From sequence record NC_028831.1: a DNA stretch of 61,235 nucleotides; one strand, given 5' to 3'. The stretch comes from Escherichia phage slur01. Of the stretch, positions 1 through 61,235 are shown one piece after another. Every line of letters starts with the position of its first letter. Within the stretch, counting starts at the first letter, position 1. The notes beneath the pieces were generated by a model. The model was not told the origin of the DNA. It was given only the letters and a program-made list of their open reading frames with translations, and searched no databases. The position numbers and the translations under genes are program-made.

Positions 1-127
1 CACAGGCATCCCAGGCTGCACGTCCGGACAACCTATAACCACACCATCGCAGGAACCGCCAAAGTGTCCGCCAGCTTCGCTGATACGGAACTGGTGTCCA
101 TTTTCGTCCTGCTGATAGACCTGCATA
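1..127. repeat. 127-bp terminal direct repeat, identical to 61109..61235 (circular permutation or assembly overlap)
   Basis: Bases 1..127 match the last 127 bases of the window exactly; a minus-strand ORF reads through the junction. Confidence 0.9.
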
Positions 128-11474: not shown

Positions 11475-11482
11475 ATAGCCTC

Positions 11483-11770
11483 CGATAGGGTATTGCCTTA
11501 ACCCTATGGTAAGACCCTCCCTATTAAATTGCAAGAGTTATTGTAAAACAATAGGTATAGGGTGCAATACAGGGTTCATATAGGGTAACCCTATAAACAC
11601 CCTATAAAATACCCTCCCTATGCAGCTTTCTAAATTTATAGTTTTAGTTTACCCCTTGCGCCCCCGCAGAAAAACTAAAGATAGGGGTACTAGGGTATAA
11701 CAATGGCAAATACCCTATACCCTACTCCCTATACTATGATTCTAAAAAATTTGGTGTATACCCCTATAAA
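11483..11770. repeat. Array of at least 12 CCCTATA/TATAGGG heptamer iterons in both orientations
   Basis: Repeated TATAGGG and CCCTATA in direct and inverted arrangements, e.g. TATAGGGTAACCCTATA; followed by an AT-rich tract (11771..11940). Confidence 0.7.
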
Positions 11771-12106
11771 CTTATAAACTTTCAGTCAACTAACTAAAAT
11801 AAACCTAATTAAACTAATATTAATAATAACTATAAATATATATAAAATAAGGATTTATTATTATTGTATATAGTACCTATTGGTATTATGTGATGAGTTT
11901 ATAGTCACTAAATAAACTCTATAAATTTTAATAAACCTGAACGGATGCAGATCAAAAATGAGAAGTCAAGTGCTTTTGAGGGAAATTTATTGAACTATTG
12001 TGATCGGATGGTATATCAAGCTATAATGCGCTTAATCGCGGGATATTGGAGGAGGACTTTATTGCGCGGTTAACCGGACCAGTAGGAGGGCTGGCCCGGA
12101 AGTAGT

Positions 12107-12433
12107 TTAGAGTTGTACAGGTGTGAAGTGGGCTAGCGTATCGTCGGACATAATACCCGACAGTTTTTCGCTTACCCATTCGGACCAAATACTATCCGGT
12201 TCCTGGCGGTGTACAAACCAGATCTCGGATGTGCCTTCTTTGCGCATCGGTTGCACTTCTGCAAGGAACTTGTCCTGCATGAGGCGGGTGAAGCAGACGC
12301 TGGTCATTGGAACTGGCTTTTCGTCTTTATTGTAATAAGGGACCAATATTTTATTTCCGAAGTCGGCAACTTCATAAACCGTTCCTTTACGTAGACCTCT
12401 GATGTCTGTGTAAGAGCGGATAAATGTTCTCAT
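12107..12433 (-). CDS. hypothetical protein
   Basis: Start at ATG with AGGAG RBS (track uses an upstream GTG at 12439). Confidence 0.5.
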   Translation of the reverse strand: MRTFIRSYTDIRGLRKGTVYEVADFGNKILVPYYNKDEKPVPMTSVCFTRLMQDKFLAEVQPMRKEGTSEIWFVHRQEPDSIWSEWVSEKLSGIMSDDTLAHFTPVQL

Positions 12434-12483
12434 GTTCACTCCTAGGGCTCCCGCAGAAGCCCGTTGGTTGATGTGGTTATGGA

Positions 12484-13098
12484 TTATGCGTCCAGTCCGT
12501 TATATTTGCGCCAGGCGTAGAACTGAATGGCGACCGTTGTCCCGTTGTAAGAAGGCATTGCAGCTTTCATTTCTTTCAGCTCCGGCGTGCGGCCCAGTTC
12601 GGCTAAAAGTTTATCGCCCATTGCCCACACGTCGGCGGTTTTTCCTTTCAGAGGCTTGCGAGCGCCATTTTTGAAATCACAGCGAGCAGCTTTTGCATCC
12701 TGTTTTGGTGCGGCAGCTTTTGGCTCTTCAATTTTGATCTCAGAAACCTGCGTGGCAGCTTTTGCGTGTTTCATATCTTTCTCTTCCTCCTGCTCCAGAG
12801 CTTCGAGGCAGCTTTTGACAATTTCCGGATTTACCATTGGGCGCAGTACCGAGACGCTGGCAGCGGGCGCGGCGGTTGGTGCCGGGACTTTCTGCTCCGG
12901 CTGTTGCGCTTTCTTATGGTCGCGCAGCACCTGAAGCACTTCCTTTTCGACGATGTAAAAACCGATCTCGTCCTGATGGATTAACTGTTCGTGTGCGTCG
13001 CGTGCAACCTGGCCCCAGCGAGTTTTGAGGGCGCGGCGTGCATTCGTTTTCATGGTGTAGCGCATTTTGTCCTGTTCGCGGTGAGTTACTTTAGACAT
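12484..13098 (-). CDS. hypothetical protein
   Basis: Start re-picked at MSKVTHREQ with GGAG RBS; Ala/Pro-rich linker in the middle. Confidence 0.5.
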   Translation of the reverse strand: MSKVTHREQDKMRYTMKTNARRALKTRWGQVARDAHEQLIHQDEIGFYIVEKEVLQVLRDHKKAQQPEQKVPAPTAAPAASVSVLRPMVNPEIVKSCLEALEQEEEKDMKHAKAATQVSEIKIEEPKAAAPKQDAKAARCDFKNGARKPLKGKTADVWAMGDKLLAELGRTPELKEMKAAMPSYNGTTVAIQFYAWRKYNGLDA

Positions 13099-13171
13099 GG
13101 TATAGCTCCTTTCGTTAATATTAGTTTGCTTATTACTGCCCACCGTAATGATGAGCAGTGTATAAGAAAAC

Positions 13172-13420
13172 TTATTGCACGATTGCTACGAAATCGGCGG
13201 TTGCGATATCCATGCTTGCGAAAGCAACGATGCTATAGTCGGTGTCGTTGTCCGCGTTAAAAGCTTTGAGGAACTGCTGCACCGCTGCTTTATGGTTAAG
13301 AGTTACGTCGATAGCATAGTCCCAGCTATAGACTTTGCGCTTGCCAAAACCTTTAACTGCAATGCGAGCGCTTTTAGTGTTGGTTGGTGCCAAAAATTTG
13401 GTGACGATAGAAGTAGCCAT
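13172..13420 (-). CDS. hypothetical protein
   Basis: 82-aa ORF with RBS GAGGA. Confidence 0.5.
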   Translation of the reverse strand: MATSIVTKFLAPTNTKSARIAVKGFGKRKVYSWDYAIDVTLNHKAAVQQFLKAFNADNDTDYSIVAFASMDIATADFVAIVQ

Positions 13421-13451
13421 GATGTAATCCTCGTTTTGTTTAAGTTGACTT

Positions 13452-13480
13452 ATTATTGCCCAGTCAGATCAACTAGGCAA
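13452..13480 (-). promoter_or_regulatory. Putative sigma70-type early promoter (TTGCCT-17-AATAAT) for the leftward operon
   Basis: On the minus strand, hexamers TTGCCT and AATAAT with a 17-nt spacer about 30 nt upstream of the 13420 start codon. Confidence 0.3.
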
Positions 13481-13958
13481 GATATAAATCACTTAATTTG
13501 TACTAAATCGTATTCCTTGTAGATGTCGCTAATGTACATATCAAACTGACCCATTAAGAAGATTTCGGCCTCCTCCCAGCTTGGGGCAGATACATAACCA
13601 GCTATTTACCGGAGGCGAGTTCCACTAATTTGAATTCCATGATGCAACCTTAATGTGGTTAAGCAGTATTGCTTTGTTGAAGTAATAATAGCCTTGCATC
13701 GTGATATTGAATAGGCCAAAAGTGCTCTTTTAGAATTGTTTTGCATCTAGTGAAAAATACGCTTGCCCTGCATGTTTAGCACTAATGGCCTAACTAACAT
13801 CACATTATCTGGAGTATTCGCGCGGGCGCACACATACATATAAAGCTGCCAAAATATTTTTATAAAAAGATGCAAAAAGGTGTAGACATATGATCGGTCT
13901 AGCATTACTATATACACATACCGCAAGGTACTACAAATTAACTTAAAGGGTACACATT

Positions 13959-14243
13959 ATGTCCATCGTCACTATGTCGTTCTTCGACCATTGCAATAAC
14001 GAAAAACAAATTATCGTTAACCTGCAAAAAGGGTTTGTTGTCGCACGCAATGCTAACCGCCAATGCATCGCGCTAACCGATTTTGCTTTCCGCCTTAACG
14101 TGGACAACACCACCGCTAAAAATATCGTTCACGATACAGCGTTGGAAGCTGCTCACGCTGCGAAGGATAAAGGTATCCGTGCCGCACGCGAGATTATGCA
14201 CAAGGCGCTCGGCGTCACGTTCTTCGTTGGGATTAAGGGGTAA
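13959..14243 (+). CDS. hypothetical protein (first gene of rightward block)
   Basis: 94-aa ORF at the head of the plus-strand block after a divergent intergenic region. Confidence 0.5.
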   Translation: MSIVTMSFFDHCNNEKQIIVNLQKGFVVARNANRQCIALTDFAFRLNVDNTTAKNIVHDTALEAAHAAKDKGIRAAREIMHKALGVTFFVGIKG

Positions 14244-14248
14244 CTACT

Positions 14249-14392
14249 ATGTCACGCAAATACACGCTTACACGCGCACAGCACGCGTTATTATTGCAGG
14301 TTATGCGCATGGAGTACGAAGAGACTACATGGGCACAAGCTATGCAGACAGGGCGCGAGTTCTACGCGCAACTAATAGCACAAAATGCCTAG
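14249..14392 (+). CDS. hypothetical small protein (47 aa)
   Basis: ATG preceded by AAGGGG; below the ORF-track size cutoff. Confidence 0.3.
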   Translation: MSRKYTLTRAQHALLLQVMRMEYEETTWAQAMQTGREFYAQLIAQNA

Positions 14393-14451
14393 ACAACATG
14401 ATCGGTCTGGTGGATACTACACACATCAACCAAACAACGGGGGTAAACAAA

Positions 14452-14679
14452 ATGCGTAGTTTCAAATGTGTAAGCGTAAATACTACTGGTAACGGTCTGT
14501 TCACGGCAGGTAATGTATATGACTTCAACATGGAAAGTTATAAAGACACAACGCTTACAGGTGTAATGTTCGGTGGCGCTCGTGTCGTTCGCTGCCATTT
14601 AAACAAGAACACGGAAAATGAATATACCCTTATCAGTCGCTACACGGGCGAGCCGTTAGCTGTGTTCCATGCAGCTTAA
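14452..14679 (+). CDS. hypothetical protein
   Basis: ATG preceded by GGGGG; the track's longer 14083..14679 ORF has no plausible upstream start. Confidence 0.45.
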   Translation: MRSFKCVSVNTTGNGLFTAGNVYDFNMESYKDTTLTGVMFGGARVVRCHLNKNTENEYTLISRYTGEPLAVFHAA

Positions 14680-15143
14680 GCTATAACGCACACAGCGCCG
14701 CGCTAGCGAGCTAATGTACATAGGTAATGGTAATGCATTAGCTCGGGCGAAACAGGCGCACAGCGTCGCGCACAGCTCGCACAGCGCACACAGACCCACG
14801 CAGGCCCAGCCGCGCAACCCGACCCATCCTTTTCCAGGTACTTGGATCGCTGGGGCGTGCCCTGTCCATCCTGATAGTATCCTTGTTTGAAAATCTAACT
14901 CGTCAACTATGTTGTTGCCGACATACGCACCCATCACATCCCTGTCCACCTACATCCATGACCCCACCTACCTTCTTTTTGAATATATTACACTCATCCT
15001 TTCTAAATATATGGATTTTGGTAGTAAATTCTGAGTCGTCAACGTATAATTCGTCTTGTAGCTGCTCCATAGCTATCATCTTTAAGCGGATGCAACCAAT
15101 TTCTATCAATTCTTACCAGTTTTACAGCATCAAGGAGGTATTT

Positions 15144-15401
15144 ATGTGCGACTCCAGTGCAAGCGCTACACCCAGCACCTCCAGCAATGTGGTTACAGAG
15201 GTAAATGCAATGCGATTAGGTCCATATCGCGGCTATTATGGTCGGGCAGCATGGAATGACGCTACTCAACGTTTTGAAGGCTGGATTATCTGTCCGGAAC
15301 GTGTTAAATTTCACTCCGTAAAAGAGAAAAATATCGTTCTTAATTTTCAAAAATGTGTCACTAAATATGTAGAGGAGCAAGAAGAATGTCTTATCAATTA
15401 G
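15144..15401 (+). CDS. hypothetical protein
   Basis: ATG preceded by AGGAGG; the track start at 14883 lies in a non-coding repeat region. Confidence 0.55.
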   Translation: MCDSSASATPSTSSNVVTEVNAMRLGPYRGYYGRAAWNDATQRFEGWIICPERVKFHSVKEKNIVLNFQKCVTKYVEEQEECLIN

Positions 15402-15748
15402 CTTTAGAAGCTGCCGGATGCGAAGTATTAGATTATGTTGAATACGGCTGCTATCAAGGTGAGTGGCTTGCATTGATCCGCAAGGACGGCGCTTTGGGAG
15501 TTTGCGAAGGGTCTTATGGTTCCTGCTTAGGTTGCGATGCATTTGAGGCTGAATTTGGTTATTTAGATGATGAGGAAGCGGATTACCAGAAACGTCTTGC
15601 AGATTTTGGAGAAGGTTACTTACCCGCAAATACTTTTGAAGAGATGATTGCTAAGCTTCAGAAGGATGTTGAAAACTATTCATACGATGACGATTATAAG
15701 TCAATGTTGAATACAGTTATTAACTGGCAAAAGCAATACGGGGTTTAA
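15386..15748 (+). CDS. hypothetical acidic Cys-containing protein
   Basis: 120 aa, acidic, with GSYGSCLGCDAFE segment; RBS GAGGAG. Confidence 0.55.
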   Translation: MSYQLALEAAGCEVLDYVEYGCYQGEWLALIRKDGALGVCEGSYGSCLGCDAFEAEFGYLDDEEADYQKRLADFGEGYLPANTFEEMIAKLQKDVENYSYDDDYKSMLNTVINWQKQYGV

Positions 15749-21903: not shown

Positions 21904-22461
21904 ATGAACGGGGCAAGTCAAGAGCAATATGATCGTGACTGGACGAATTACATCCAGTATGCAAATAGCTTGTCCGCTGAAGAGATGGCAATACGTGACA
22001 AAGTTGTTGCTGAGTACATGTTCGACTACAATTGGACTAACGCTTGCATGAGATGCGGGTTCAATGCTATGTTTGCACAGGAGCTTGGCCAACGCTTTGC
22101 CACGGACTGTTATGTTCGATGGAAGCTCAAGGAGATTGAAAGATCCCGTGTTCAACGTACTTCTGAGCAAGCTAACATTGAAGCAGACCTTGAGCGTCAG
22201 CATATCATTGAAGCATTAAAACGTGAAGCTCATTATACAGGACCGGGATCTTCTCAAGCTGCTAGAGTCGCCGCATTGGGCAAGCTTGCACAAATTTATG
22301 ATTTGGATGCTCCCAAGAAGGCTAAGATTGATGTTACTAACAGAGGCGGCGTAATGATAGTCCCTGCTGTAGCAAATATTGACGAATGGGAAAAAACTGC
22401 ATCCGAGTCTCAACAACGACTAGTTAAAGAGACTGAAGATGGAGCTAAACCGACAACCTGA
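21904..22461 (+). CDS. Terminase small subunit
   Basis: 185-aa protein immediately upstream of the large terminase; RBS AAGGGGG. Confidence 0.55.
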   Translation: MNGASQEQYDRDWTNYIQYANSLSAEEMAIRDKVVAEYMFDYNWTNACMRCGFNAMFAQELGQRFATDCYVRWKLKEIERSRVQRTSEQANIEADLERQHIIEALKREAHYTGPGSSQAARVAALGKLAQIYDLDAPKKAKIDVTNRGGVMIVPAVANIDEWEKTASESQQRLVKETEDGAKPTT

Positions 22462-28069: not shown

Positions 28070-28723
28070 ATGAAGACATTAATTGAAGCATTGTTAGAAC
28101 TTGATCCGGATAACCCGAATCATTGGACTAGCGACGGTCTACCTAAAGTAGACGCTCTGCGTTTCGCTACCGCTAACCCGTCTTTAACCCGCGACGATAT
28201 TACGACTGCTGCCCCTCTATTCACCCGCGATAACCGCGTGCTGGAAGAGCCCGAGCCTGTGGAACCCGTTAAATCTGCTGATCCAGTTTTACATGAAGCA
28301 GTTAAACAGGAGAAAGCTCATGAAGAACAAAAGAAAGTCGCGGTTGCAACGATGCAAATCGAAGTTAAGATTAGCGAAGCACTGCGTGCTCTTCTGGAGC
28401 CGGAAAAAATCGGTGACGCTTCCAGCTTAACCGATGAAGAACTGAAAGCGAAGCGCGAAAAGCTTAGCAATGTGGTTAAAGAGATTGCCCACACTAAGCA
28501 CGCGCTGGAGCTTGCTATTGCCGACGTTCAAGCGGATCTGGATAAGATTATCGTTGAGCAGGAAAGTCGTCGTCCTAAGTCCGGGCTTACTGCAACTCAG
28601 ATGTATCTTGAAGCGCAGAAAAAACGTAAACCTGAAGACATGCTTTCTGACCATCTCTTCCAGAACCCTATTGACGATCCGGTCGCCCGTATGGTTGCGC
28701 GTAATATGATGCGTCGAGGTTAA
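28070..28723 (+). CDS. hypothetical structural protein
   Basis: 217 aa, charged and helical; head-to-tail module position. Confidence 0.5.
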   Translation: MKTLIEALLELDPDNPNHWTSDGLPKVDALRFATANPSLTRDDITTAAPLFTRDNRVLEEPEPVEPVKSADPVLHEAVKQEKAHEEQKKVAVATMQIEVKISEALRALLEPEKIGDASSLTDEELKAKREKLSNVVKEIAHTKHALELAIADVQADLDKIIVEQESRRPKSGLTATQMYLEAQKKRKPEDMLSDHLFQNPIDDPVARMVARNMMRRG

Positions 28724-60628: not shown

Positions 60629-61235
60629 TCAATCTTTCCCGTAATAATTAGCTACTTGATAGTTTTGACAACCAACTTTCTGTCCTTGCGTATCCACTGC
60701 GGCGGAATGGAAATTGCAATACCATGTTCCATCTTCTTTTGGTTCAAGGAATTGACATGTGCGGCAGTTTACTTCCGGCATAGTTTTACGCCAGCATAGT
60801 GAGGAGTGATCGCACCATTTACATTCGAAGAAAGTGGAATCTTTAAATGCGCGGTCCGGAATATCTGTAGCAATAGCAATCTGCACACCACGATCAATAT
60901 ACATGTCCGCGGTAACAGGATCAAACGGAATAATTTCTGCGTAAACTTCATCGTCATTCTTGTTTACAGCAAGATATAACGCTGCGCCAAGACCTAGTTT
61001 TCGCATGTACACGTTCATCTGTACATAGTGCTCAGGTTTGGCTTCTTTAACACCTTTAGCTTTCAGCTTTTTAAAAGACTTATCGTTATGCGTCTTCATT
61101 TCGGTGAGCACAGGCATCCCAGGCTGCACGTCCGGACAACCTATAACCACACCATCGCAGGAACCGCCAAAGTGTCCGCCAGCTTCGCTGATACGGAACT
61201 GGTGTCCATTTTCGTCCTGCTGATAGACCTGCATA
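60629..61235 (-). CDS. 3' part of the YqaJ/lambda-Exo-like PD-(D/E)xK exonuclease (5' part at 1..429 across the junction)
   Basis: In frame with the 1..429 segment through the terminal repeat; C-terminal Cys cluster CKWC...CWRK...CRTC; total about 302 aa. Confidence 0.7.
   Translation of the reverse strand, partial: MQVYQQDENGHQFRISEAGGHFGGSCDGVVIGCPDVQPGMPVLTEMKTHNDKSFKKLKAKGVKEAKPEHYVQMNVYMRKLGLGAALYLAVNKNDDEVYAEIIPFDPVTADMYIDRGVQIAIATDIPDRAFKDSTFFECKWCDHSSLCWRKTMPEVNCRTCQFLEPKEDGTWYCNFHSAAVDTQGQKVGCQNYQVANYYGKD
61109..61235. repeat. 127-bp terminal direct repeat, identical to 1..127
   Basis: Exact identity with the first 127 bases of the window. Confidence 0.9.

What the first reader, a model, noticed from the sequence alone, without database searches (positions are those of the whole stretch)
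14700..14830. GC-rich non-coding segment with a 10-bp inverted repeat and tandem CGCACAG repeats
The 460-bp intergenic region 14680..15143 contains a perfect inverted repeat CGAGCTAATG...CATTAGCTCG (14707..14745) followed by four closely spaced CGCACAG copies (about 14757..14795) with strong strand asymmetry in base composition. This is unlike the surrounding early genes and could be a packaging site or a regulatory hub. The terminase genes lie about 7 kb downstream.
Basis: seen in the sequence. Interest (0 to 1): 0.5.

Follow-up and report, generated by a model that had tools for sequence, protein, structure and literature searches.

The report
Repeat array beside phage genome end
The hairpin and CGCACAG repeats are real, conserved non-coding DNA lying 70-155 bases inside the predicted physical end of this E. 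coli phage's genome, so they belong to the genome-end region, but evidence from relatives says they are not the essential packaging signal.

Summary
There is a perfect 10-bp inverted repeat at 14707-16/14736-45. On one strand there are five CACAG-core heptamers: three exact CGCACAG and two CGCACACAG. This is the densest such cluster in the genome. The window is a circularly assembled Seuratvirus (Queuovirinae) genome.

Four relatives have GenBank records with exact 3.4-3.7-kb direct terminal repeats: HdSG1, HdK1, ECP2304 and yong3. Their right boundary falls inside this intergenic region. In Nonagvirus it matches, to the nucleotide, the published 9g read-start hot spot. In the two Seuratvirus records it lies exactly 2 nt before CCATCCTGATAGTA, which occurs once in the window (14866-79). 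The predicted right genome end is therefore 14863|14864. The finding is the non-coding sub-terminal edge of a roughly 3.1-kb terminal repeat.

Three results count against the repeats being the terminase recognition site:
- TerS is 100% identical in sister phages that carry an unrelated module here.
- Deleting 111 nt of that module in phage DruSM1 gave viable phage.
- Deleting the 72 nt that span the boundary also gave viable phage.

The region is not coding, matches no Rfam family, is not an intrinsic terminator, and is neither cos nor headful pac. The closest known anatomy is the CCTAAAG heptamer array next to the T7 terminal repeat. Interest is moderate.

The parts
14680..15143 (.). Whole non-coding interval between the last rightward gene inside the terminal repeat (stop codon 14677-14679) and the next gene (ATG at 15144).
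   Evidence: It is conserved from 14683 onward even where the upstream gene differs (Seurat, CAjan, STP-SP5). Indels of 1, 2, 11 and 31 nt rule out a conserved reading frame, and database annotators call mutually inconsistent ORFs here.
14683..14740 (+). Segment shared by all E. coli Seuratviruses of both module types. It contains CGCACACAG (14687-14695), the left arm of the inverted repeat, and the loop word GGTAATGGTAATG (14723-14735).
   Evidence: Phages of subgroup 2 match only query positions 1-58. Sequences. No DruSM1 deletion removed this segment.
14707..14745 (.). Hairpin or cruciform-capable inverted repeat: 10-bp arms and a 19-nt loop.
   Evidence: The stem top is changed in a compensatory way in STP-SP5 (GAGCTAGCCC/GGGCTAGCTC, z = -5.2). 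An unrelated hairpin sits at the same place in yong3 (z = -2.4). The hairpin is lost in subgroup 2, which has a different 11-bp hairpin about 80 nt further on (z = -5.5).
14757..14803 (+). Same-strand heptamer array: CGCACAG x3 (14757, 14769, 14778), CGCACACAG (14785-14793) and CACGCAG (14797-14803).
   Evidence: The array is kept in every phage that carries module A. STP-SP5 and yong3 have 3 CACAG and 0 CTGTG in the last 200 nt of the repeat.
14804..14863 (+). C-rich tail of the terminal repeat. It contains CCAGGTACTTGG (14834-14845) and the G+C-rich near-palindrome GGGCGTGCCC (14853-14862). The last base of the predicted terminal repeat is 14863.
   Evidence: AGGTACT-like words and a G+C palindrome directly before the boundary recur in ECP2304 (AGGGCCCT), SHIN8 (AGGCGCCT) and 9g (GCCGCGGGGCGGC).
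14864..14879 (+). First unique bases after the predicted boundary: GT followed by CCATCCTGATAGTA (14866-14879).
   Evidence: The deposited terminal repeats of ECP2304 and yong3 both end exactly 2 nt before this 14-mer. The 14-mer occurs once in the window, against 0.18 matches with up to 2 mismatches expected by chance.
14880..14990 (+). Hypervariable stretch just outside the repeat (59-69% identity). It includes an insertion of about 31 nt (~14897-14927) that duplicates AAAATCTAACTCGTCAAC, followed by a C-rich, G-poor tract (14928-14975: C 25, G 2).
   Evidence: (D4).
15026..15092 (+). Promoter-like and leader elements of the downstream operon: GAGTCGTCAAC, then TATAAT (15045-15050), the hairpin GTAGCT/AGCTAT (15058-15076) and the invariant CATCTTTAAGCGGATG (15077-15092).
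   Evidence: The hairpin is compensated in STP-SP5 (GTACC/GGTAC). On the minus strand, TTGACG-16-CAAAAT (15042..15015) is also promoter-like.
11715..14863 (.). Predicted direct terminal repeat of this phage, about 3.15 kb. The left boundary is approximate (+/- about 20 nt).
   Evidence: The left boundary was transferred from position 1 of ECP2304 (position 54 aligns to window 11768) and from the left boundary of yong3 (48 nt before CCCCTATAA)..

Best explanation
The segment is the non-coding sub-terminal edge of a direct terminal repeat of about 3.1 kb.

What follows from homology. In virions the DNA is linear and carries window ~11715-14863 at both ends. The right physical end lies at 14863|14864. 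At that end the hairpin is about 120-155 nt from the tip and the CACAG array about 60-105 nt from it. In the left-hand copy, and in replicating concatemers, the same element sits between the small early operon of the repeat (13959-14679) and the promoter and leader of the next operon.

What is inferred. The hairpin and the one-strand heptamer array are an accessory boundary element. I think they help terminase or the concatemer-processing machinery place or time the right-end cut. They may do so as a protein-binding or pausing platform about one helical turn apart, as is suspected for the heptamer arrays flanking the T7 terminal repeat. They probably also mark the 3' end of the rightward transcript of the repeat. 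They modulate end formation rather than specify it, and they are not the essential recognition site.

Confidence by step. Location next to the genome end: about 0.85. The accessory end-processing mechanism: about 0.35-0.4.
For: 1. The window is a Seuratvirus: 89-97% identical to KurtStettler, SeppeHuegi, Greed, Seurat and CAjan.
2. The records of Nonagvirus HdSG1 and HdK1 and of Seuratvirus ECP2304 and yong3 carry exact terminal repeats of 3363, 3367, 3695 and 3424 bp. [quoted passage not shown]
3. The right boundary in HdSG1 and HdK1 (...GCCGCGGGGCGGCTC|TTAGATC) equals the 9g hot spot at position 28,243. There, 91 reads start and 23 end, against a mean of 2.6 per position (PMC4276943).
4. The ECP2304 and yong3 repeats both end 2 nt before CCATCCTGATAGTA. 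That word occurs once in the window, at 14866-14879.
5. Both boundaries are site-specific. HdK1 has 460 bp more unique DNA than HdSG1, yet the repeat length is the same and the left boundary agrees within 3 nt.
6. Another member of the subfamily, iggy, has a 1091-bp terminal repeat shown by nanopore sequencing (PMC10484667).
7. The hairpin is kept through compensatory change, and the CACAG array and its strand are kept, in three lineages about 70% identical to each other.
8. The Nonagvirus sub-terminal region also has direct-repeat arrays, of different sequence: three copies of a 21-mer and at least three copies of ATAGTAAC.
9. T7 has about 12 CCTAAAG heptamers at 13-nt spacing directly beside its 160-bp terminal repeat.
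Against: 1. No reads or virion DNA of this phage were available, so the end is inferred by homology.
2. TerS is 100% identical in phages with module A and in phages with the unrelated module B.
3. In DruSM1 (module B), deleting 111 nt of the module gave recoverable phage. So did deleting 72 nt across the boundary, including CCATCCTGATAGTA. The non-recoverable deletions lie at the left boundary of the repeat.
4. Within the close group the module is no better conserved (96-98%) than the neighbouring genes (87-99%).
5. The 191-nt segment as a whole is not unusually structured: z = -0.5 to -1.3.
6. No binding protein has been identified.
Confidence: 0.45

Rival explanations
1. It is purely a transcription boundary. 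The hairpin plus the C-rich RNA form the 3' end of the rightward operon of the terminal repeat (13959-14679), either as a Rho-dependent terminator or as a stabilising 3' hairpin. This insulates the early anti-defence genes in the repeat from the next operon. Its closeness to the DNA end is incidental.
For: - The module starts at or within a few nt of the stop codon of three different upstream genes.
- Every lineage has a strong hairpin downstream of that operon.
- Annotators of SA80RD and SA126VB called terminators on these hairpins.
- C exceeds G from 14746 onward, and 14928-14975 is extremely G-poor.
- Two of the four single substitutions in the stem give G.U pairs on the + strand RNA.
- The T7 concatemer junction is itself a terminator or pause site (abstract listed).
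Against: - There is no U tract, and the terminator scan found nothing at this site.
- The CACAG array is G+C-rich with only a modest excess of C over G (47:33). The best rut-like tract lies outside the finding.
- Termination does not explain a strand-fixed heptamer array conserved across lineages.
- The other two of the four stem substitutions break a pair.
Confidence: 0.25
2. One reading: the inverted repeat and the CGCACAG repeats are the sequence-specific recognition site (pac or cosB-like) bound by terminase small subunit to start packaging.
For: They lie 60-155 nt from the inferred cut. The repeats are spaced about one helical turn apart, as at other terminase binding sites.
Against: - TerS is identical in phages that lack the array.
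- The analogous region and the cut site itself are dispensable in DruSM1, whereas the left-boundary region is not.
- The ends are a site-specific terminal repeat, neither cos nor headful.
Confidence: 0.08
3. It is a DNA-entry element: a T5-like injection stop or pause signal at the inner edge of the left terminal repeat. This would let the anti-defence genes of the repeat be expressed before the rest of the genome enters.
For: [quoted passage not shown]
- Genes in the DruSM1 repeat (ORF71, ORF72) affect Druantia, BREX and AVAST.
- The repeat is a self-contained divergent transcription unit flanked by non-coding, repeat-rich DNA.
Against: - There are no DnaA boxes (0 with up to 1 mismatch in 14600-15150), which Davison names as the conserved feature of iss.
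- Two-step injection has never been reported for these siphoviruses.
- Deletions within module B are viable.
Confidence: 0.05
4. It has no specific function. It is a mosaic filler cassette: two alternative modules (A and B) swapped by recombination at a homing-endonuclease-prone intergenic site, and conserved only because the phages are close relatives.
For: - Replacement by module B has sharp borders.
- HNH genes are inserted in this intergenic region in SA80RD, Skure and DruSM1.
- Deletions are viable.
- Conservation is similar to that of the flanks.
Against: - The hairpin is kept by compensatory change, and the CACAG number and strand are kept, in STP-SP5 and yong3 at about 70% identity.
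- The motif cluster is statistically extreme: 0 of 300 shuffles reached it.
Confidence: 0.12
5. It is a gene: a small protein (annotators call various ORFs here) or a structured small RNA.
For: ORFs of 43-97 codons exist on both strands, and several records annotate a CDS here.
Against: - The annotated ORFs differ in strand, frame and length between records.
- Indels of 1, 2, 11 and 31 nt occur.
- There is no Rfam match and no tRNA.
- Whole-segment folding is not better than shuffles on either strand.
Confidence: 0.03

Closest known systems
Short-repeat arrays of phage T7 (CCTAAAG heptamers, called SRL/SRR in my recollection of Dunn & Studier 1983) that flank the 160-bp direct terminal repeat at the concatemer junction
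   Same: Both have a same-orientation array of 7-bp words about one helical turn apart, in non-coding DNA directly beside a terminal-repeat boundary of a phage with site-specific repeated ends. I verified this in the T7 sequence: the repeat is 1-160 and the heptamers lie at 175-345 with 13-nt spacing. The T7 junction also acts as a transcription pause or terminator (abstract listed).
   Different: - Here there are 5 copies, not about 12, with spacing of 9-12 nt.
- Here the array lies inside the repeat, 60-105 nt from the boundary, not just outside it.
- The repeat is about 3.1 kb long and belongs to a siphovirus that uses host RNA polymerase.
- The word is unrelated in sequence.
- The array is replaceable by another module.
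- The function of the T7 arrays is itself not established (my own knowledge).
Right end of the Nonagvirus 9g / HdSG1 / HdK1 terminal repeat (sister genus)
   Same: - It occupies the homologous genomic position, between the early minus-strand genes and the rightward operon that leads to terminase.
- It shows the same order of words: ATAGTA, then (A)TCTCGTCA, then a C-rich tract.
- The sub-terminal DNA is non-coding and holds direct-repeat arrays, with a G+C palindrome at the cut.
   Different: - The sequence is not alignable by blastn.
- The arrays are 21-mers containing ATACCAGGTAAC, plus ATAGTAAC words, not CACAG.
- There are no rightward genes inside the Nonagvirus repeat.
- The cut lies after ATAGTAAC...GGCTC rather than before CCATCCTGATAGTA.
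T5 injection stop signal (iss) in the untranslated part of the left terminal repeat
   Same: Both are repeat-, inverted-repeat- and palindrome-rich non-coding DNA at the inner edge of a long terminal repeat that carries the earliest genes.
   Different: There are no DnaA boxes here. The region is about 180 nt, against more than 1 kb in T5. Two-step entry is not known for this group.
pac sites of headful phages and cosB of lambda-like phages
   Same: Both have repeated short words near a terminase cut.
   Different: - The ends here are long, exact, site-specific repeats at both boundaries.
- The array does not co-vary with TerS.
- The corresponding region is dispensable in the one relative tested, DruSM1.

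Membership tests
Terminus region of a phage with direct terminal repeats (T7/T5 type) | Virion DNA carries the same sequence at both ends. | tested here: met
   This was tested in relatives only. Exact repeats occur in the records of HdSG1 (3363 bp), HdK1 (3367), ECP2304 (3695) and yong3 (3424), each at 100% identity. The 9g paper reports reads crossing the hot spot and infers a terminal repeat.
Terminus region of a phage with direct terminal repeats (T7/T5 type) | The same is true of the phage in this window. | not testable with these tools
   The window is a circular assembly whose first 127 nt equal its last 127 nt. No reads are available.
Terminus region of a phage with direct terminal repeats (T7/T5 type) | The boundaries are site-specific and conserved among relatives. 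| tested here: met
   The right boundary is identical in 9g, HdSG1 and HdK1. In ECP2304 and yong3 it lies 2 nt before CCATCCTGATAGTA. The left boundary of HdSG1 and HdK1 agrees within 3 nt although their unique DNA differs by 460 bp.
Terminus region of a phage with direct terminal repeats (T7/T5 type) | The boundary sequence is present, and unique, in the window. | tested here: met
   CCATCCTGATAGTA occurs once, at 14866-14879. The flanks align with ECP2304 and yong3.
Headful pac site | Terminal redundancy absorbs differences in genome length, and the ends are permuted or imprecise. | tested here: not met
   The repeat is 3363 bp in HdSG1 and 3367 bp in HdK1 although the unique genomes are 60,232 and 60,692 bp. 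The left ends are at the same site.
Terminase small-subunit recognition site (pac or cosB) | The site co-varies with, or is required together with, its TerS. | tested here: not met
   TerS is 100% identical in phages with module A and module B. In DruSM1, deletion of module B sequence and deletion of the boundary both gave viable phage.
cos site | Single-stranded cohesive ends with no terminal duplication. | tested here: not met
   Relatives carry exact duplications of 3.4-3.7 kb at their ends.
Intrinsic (Rho-independent) terminator | A G+C-rich hairpin immediately followed by a U tract. | tested here: not met
   The hairpin is followed by GGGCGAAACAGG on the + strand and CTAGCGCGG on the minus strand. 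The scan lists no site at 14700-14760.
Rho-dependent terminator (rut) | A C-rich, G-poor, unstructured RNA tract of about 70-80 nt or more downstream of a stop codon. | tested here: inconclusive
   14746-14863 has C 47 and G 33, which is modest. 14928-14975 has C 25 and G 2, which is strong but lies outside the finding. No functional test was possible.
T7-type heptamer array at a terminal-repeat boundary | Several same-orientation 7-bp words about one helical turn apart, beside the repeat boundary. | tested here: met
   Five CACAG-core heptamers, all on the + strand, with spacings of 12, 9 and 9 nt, lie 60-105 nt from the predicted boundary. The T7 anatomy was verified. This is a resemblance in anatomy only; no function is known for either.
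T5 injection stop signal | An ordered series of DnaA boxes among repeats and palindromes in the untranslated part of the repeat. | tested here: not met
   There are 0 DnaA boxes (TTWTNCACA, up to 1 mismatch) in 14600-15150, against a genome average of 2.3 per kb. The feature is as stated.
Any Rfam RNA family, tRNA or tmRNA | A match at the family's gathering score. | tested here: not met
   There were 0 Rfam matches and 0 tRNA or tmRNA genes in the whole window.

The most novel reading that the evidence does not exclude
In this siphovirus subfamily the right-end cut may be positioned from a distance, by a sub-terminal structured element, rather than by the sequence at the cut. That element would be the shared 14683-14740 segment plus the hairpin and array. 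This would explain why deleting the boundary itself is tolerated in DruSM1 while the ends remain nucleotide-precise in nature. The element would then be a new kind of 'measuring' or pausing signal for making long direct terminal repeats. It might also act as an entry pause that gives the two-copy anti-defence genes a head start.
Probability: 0.12. Interest if true: 0.6.

Novelty: new member of a known kind. Interest (0 to 1): 0.38.

Why it matters
- Most Seuratvirus and Nonagvirus records are deposited as circularly arranged sequences that start at terS. Their true ends and their 3-kb terminal duplication are therefore invisible to users.
- Placing the end at 14863|14864 shows that the anti-defence genes in the repeat are present in two copies per virion and sit at both tips. 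It also corrects spurious ORF calls in this interval.
- It tells people who rebuild or engineer these phages (BASEL collection, DruSM1-type synthetic genomes) which non-coding DNA lies at the termini.
- The hairpin and heptamer array is a compact, testable candidate for how long direct terminal repeats are delimited. That question remains unsettled even for T7 and T5.

Tried and rejected
- **RNA gene:** an Rfam scan at gathering scores and ARAGORN found nothing over the whole window.
- **Coding:** rejected because of frame-breaking indels and inconsistent annotation.
- **Large structured RNA or DNA:** folding of 14680-14870 on both strands gave z = -0.5 to -1.3, so only the local hairpin is significant.
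- **Intrinsic terminator:** there is no U tract.
- **cos ends from record starts:** the CAjan, KurtStettler and Seurat records simply start at terS, so they are uninformative.
- **Literature on CAjan or Seuratvirus ends:** I found nothing usable. For the Seuratvirus phiHS1, PhageTerm failed.
- **More divergent homologues in IMG/VR:** Two longer patterns gave only 2-3 Seuratvirus contigs.
- **Nucleotide search from Seuratvirus to Nonagvirus:** no hits. The link was made through position and shared word order instead.
- **TerS co-variation with module type:** none.
- **Pfam and PHROGs on neighbouring genes:** no DNA-binding or other informative families.
- **DnaA boxes:** none.
- **Other copies of the loop word GGTAATGGTAATG:** none that are convincing.
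- **A T7-like genome paper, for a description of the heptamer arrays:** not described there, so I checked the T7 sequence directly.

Full report
**What the window is.** The interval 14300-15500 is 89-97% identical to Escherichia phages KurtStettler, SeppeHuegi, Greed, Seurat, CAjan and about 30 others of the genus Seuratvirus, subfamily Queuovirinae. The first 127 nt of the window equal the last 127 nt. It is therefore a circularised assembly of one phage genome, with 61,108 unique bp.

CGAGCTAATG (14707-14716) and CATTAGCTCG (14736-14745) are perfectly complementary around a 19-nt loop. An inverted repeat this long appeared in 6 of 1000 dinucleotide shuffles of the intergenic region. The hairpin is far more stable than shuffles (z = -4.7, 0 of 200).

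Exact CGCACAG occurs three times (14757, 14769, 14778). CGCACACAG variants lie at 14785 and, upstream of the hairpin, at 14687. A CACGCAG lies at 14797. All five CACAG cores are on the + strand. Five within 120 nt is the genome maximum, and none of 300 shuffles that kept local composition reached it. The segment is 68% G+C against 44% for the genome and is C-rich on the + strand.

**It is non-coding and not a known RNA.**
- Ten relatives align across the whole 464-nt interval. Homology starts sharply at 14683 even where the upstream gene is different.
- Indels of 1, 2, 11 and 31 nt break every reading frame.
- Database annotators place ORFs of different strand, frame and length here, or none at all.
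- Rfam and ARAGORN find nothing.
- The 191-nt segment as a whole does not fold better than shuffles on either strand.
- The hairpin has no U tract, and the terminator scan lists nothing there.

**How the elements vary among relatives.**
- In Salmonella phage STP-SP5 (about 70% identity) the stem base GAGCTA/TAGCTC is kept. The stem top changes from ATG/CAT to GCCC/GGGC, giving again a perfect 10-bp stem (z = -5.2).
- Hafnia phage yong3 has an unrelated two-part hairpin at the same place (z = -2.4).
- Both keep a CACACAG before the hairpin and CACAG-type words after it, always on the same strand.
- A second set of E. coli Seuratviruses (SHIN8, Skure, SA126VB, ECP2304, DruSM1 and others) keeps only 14683-14740. 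It replaces the right arm and the whole array with an unrelated module of about 260 nt. That module has its own 11-bp hairpin (z = -5.5).

**The decisive context: the genome end.**
- *Read-start evidence in 9g.* Kulikov et al. mapped a read-start hot spot in Nonagvirus 9g at position 28,243. There, 91 reads start, all in one orientation, and 23 end, against a mean of 2.6 per position. The site lies inside the 603-bp non-coding region between the two divergent halves of the genome, and the authors inferred a terminal repeat (PMC4276943). The coordinates fit record NC_024146: 473 + 130 nt.
[quoted passage not shown] They carry exact terminal repeats of 3363 and 3367 bp. Their right boundary...GCCGCGGGGCGGCTC|TTAGATC, is the 9g hot spot to the nucleotide.
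- *Deposited repeats in Seuratvirus.* The records of ECP2304 and yong3 carry exact repeats of 3695 and 3424 bp. Both end exactly 2 nt before CCATCCTGATAGTA.
- *Transfer to the window.* That 14-mer occurs once in the window, at 14866-14879. The predicted right end of this phage is therefore ...GGGGCGTGCCCT(14863)|GTCCATCC.
- *The two regions correspond.* The 9g and window regions share word order across the boundary: ATAGTA, then TCTCGTCA, then a C-rich tract.
- *Not headful.* HdK1 has 460 bp more unique DNA than HdSG1. Its repeat length is the same and its left boundary agrees within 3 nt, so the ends are site-specific.
- *The left boundary.* Transferred from ECP2304 and yong3, it falls near 11715 in the window. 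This gives a repeat of about 3.15 kb.
- *Another subfamily member.* Phage iggy has a 1091-bp terminal repeat shown by nanopore sequencing.

The finding therefore lies in the last 35-180 bp of the terminal repeat.

**Does that make it the packaging site?** Position says perhaps. Three tests say it is not the essential, TerS-specific one.
1. TerS (21904-22461) is 100% identical in phages with the array and in phages with the alternative module.
2. The DruSM1 knock-out table lists two recovered deletion phages. I mapped their primers onto the DruSM1 sequence. PH_ORF89 removes 111 nt of the alternative module, including half of its hairpin. PH_ORF90 removes 72 nt that span the inferred boundary itself: 52 nt inside the repeat and 20 nt outside, including CCATCCTGATAGTA (bioRxiv 10.1101/2024.04.14.589459).
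3. The deletions that could not be recovered (PH_ORF75, PH_ORF76) lie in the non-coding region at the left boundary of the repeat.

No DruSM1 deletion removed the shared 14683-14740 segment, so that part remains untested. The DruSM1 results are for module B. Applying them to module A is an argument from position, not a direct test.

**Best reading.** The hairpin and heptamer array are a sub-terminal boundary element of the direct terminal repeat. What rests on homology is where it sits. What I infer is what it does: an accessory platform that helps place or time the right-end cut during concatemer processing, and probably also marks the 3' end of the rightward transcript of the repeat.

The closest verified anatomy is T7. 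An array of about 12 CCTAAAG heptamers at 13-nt spacing directly adjoins its 160-bp terminal repeat. Its junction also acts as a transcription pause or terminator. The sister genus Nonagvirus also has direct-repeat arrays in the same sub-terminal position, with unrelated words.

**Rivals.**
- *Pure transcription boundary.* This fits the position right after stop codons and the hairpin present in every lineage. It does not explain the array, and there is no U tract.
- *T5-like entry stop.* The defining DnaA boxes are absent.
- *Mosaic filler.* Viable deletions and conservation similar to the flanks favour it. Compensatory hairpin conservation and the extreme motif clustering argue against it.
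- *Replication origin.* The left-boundary region is a much better origin candidate.

**Verdict.** The region is a further example of the repeat-rich sub-terminal DNA seen in phages with direct terminal repeats. The concrete, testable prediction is an end at 14863|14864.

Noticed in passing
window 11475-12107: A non-coding region of about 630 bp sits at the predicted left boundary of the terminal repeat (~11715). It holds at least 12 copies of (A/C)CCCTAT(A) in both orientations, followed by a stretch of 16-18% G+C. This looks like iterons plus an unwinding element, so it is a candidate replication origin or left-end packaging signal. The repeated word is lineage-specific: GGAATAAT in ECP2304 and GCCACTATAA in DruSM1. 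DruSM1 deletions here (PH_ORF75, PH_ORF76) were not recoverable.
   Followed up: partly
window 1-127 and 61109-61235: The first and last 127 nt are identical. The window is a circularised assembly (probably a k = 127 overlap) with an arbitrary start. The terminal repeat is collapsed to one copy.
   Followed up: yes
window 14897-14927: An insertion of about 31 nt, present only in the window and in SeppeHuegi, duplicates AAAATCTAACTCGTCAAC (second copy at 15026-15043). It lies in a hypervariable stretch (14859-14958, 59-69% identity) that begins immediately outside the repeat boundary.
   Followed up: partly
window 15026-15092: The word GAGTCGTCAAC is conserved, and a related word (CTCGTCAC) occurs in yong3 and 9g. 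On the + strand it is followed by TATAAT (15045-15050). On the minus strand it reads as TTGACG-16-CAAAAT, whose -10 box improves to TAAAAT in yong3. Then comes a leader hairpin, GTAGCT/AGCTAT, compensated to GTACC/GGTAC in STP-SP5, and the invariant CATCTTTAAGCGGATG. Which strand's promoter is real was not settled.
   Followed up: partly
L011 1559-1819 (SHIN8), L163 3795-4055 (DruSM1), L023 (ECP2304): An alternative sub-terminal module of about 260 nt replaces the array in about 8 Seuratviruses. It has an 11-bp hairpin, an AT-rich TATAAT-like box and scattered (T/C)CACAG words. Deleting 111 nt of it is tolerated in DruSM1.
   Followed up: partly
L010 1830-2312 (SA80RD), L012 1968-2441 (Skure), L163 4232-4705 (DruSM1), L161 3536- (HdK1): HNH homing-endonuclease genes are inserted repeatedly just outside the right boundary of the terminal repeat, between the boundary and the first downstream gene.
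   Followed up: no
window 12107-14679 (genes inside the predicted terminal repeat): The repeat is a self-contained divergent unit of small genes of unknown function (PHROGs without annotation). In the DruSM1 knock-out table, the homologous genes ORF71 and ORF72 change sensitivity to Druantia I, BREX I, AVAST 3 and qatABCD. Anti-defence genes would therefore be present twice per virion, once at each tip.
   Followed up: partly
window 14272-14288: A small hairpin, ACGCG-CACAGCA-CGCGT, followed by TATTATT lies inside the 47-codon gene 14249-14392. It is terminator-like in the scan, and its loop carries another CGCACAG.
   Followed up: no
records MK373795.1, MK373794.1, OR880647.1, OM868075.1: Total virion DNA lengths, including both repeats, are 63,595, 64,059, 63,590 and 62,823 bp. 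The yong3 record is labelled circular although it contains the repeat twice. Most other records of these genera start at terS and omit the duplication.
   Followed up: yes
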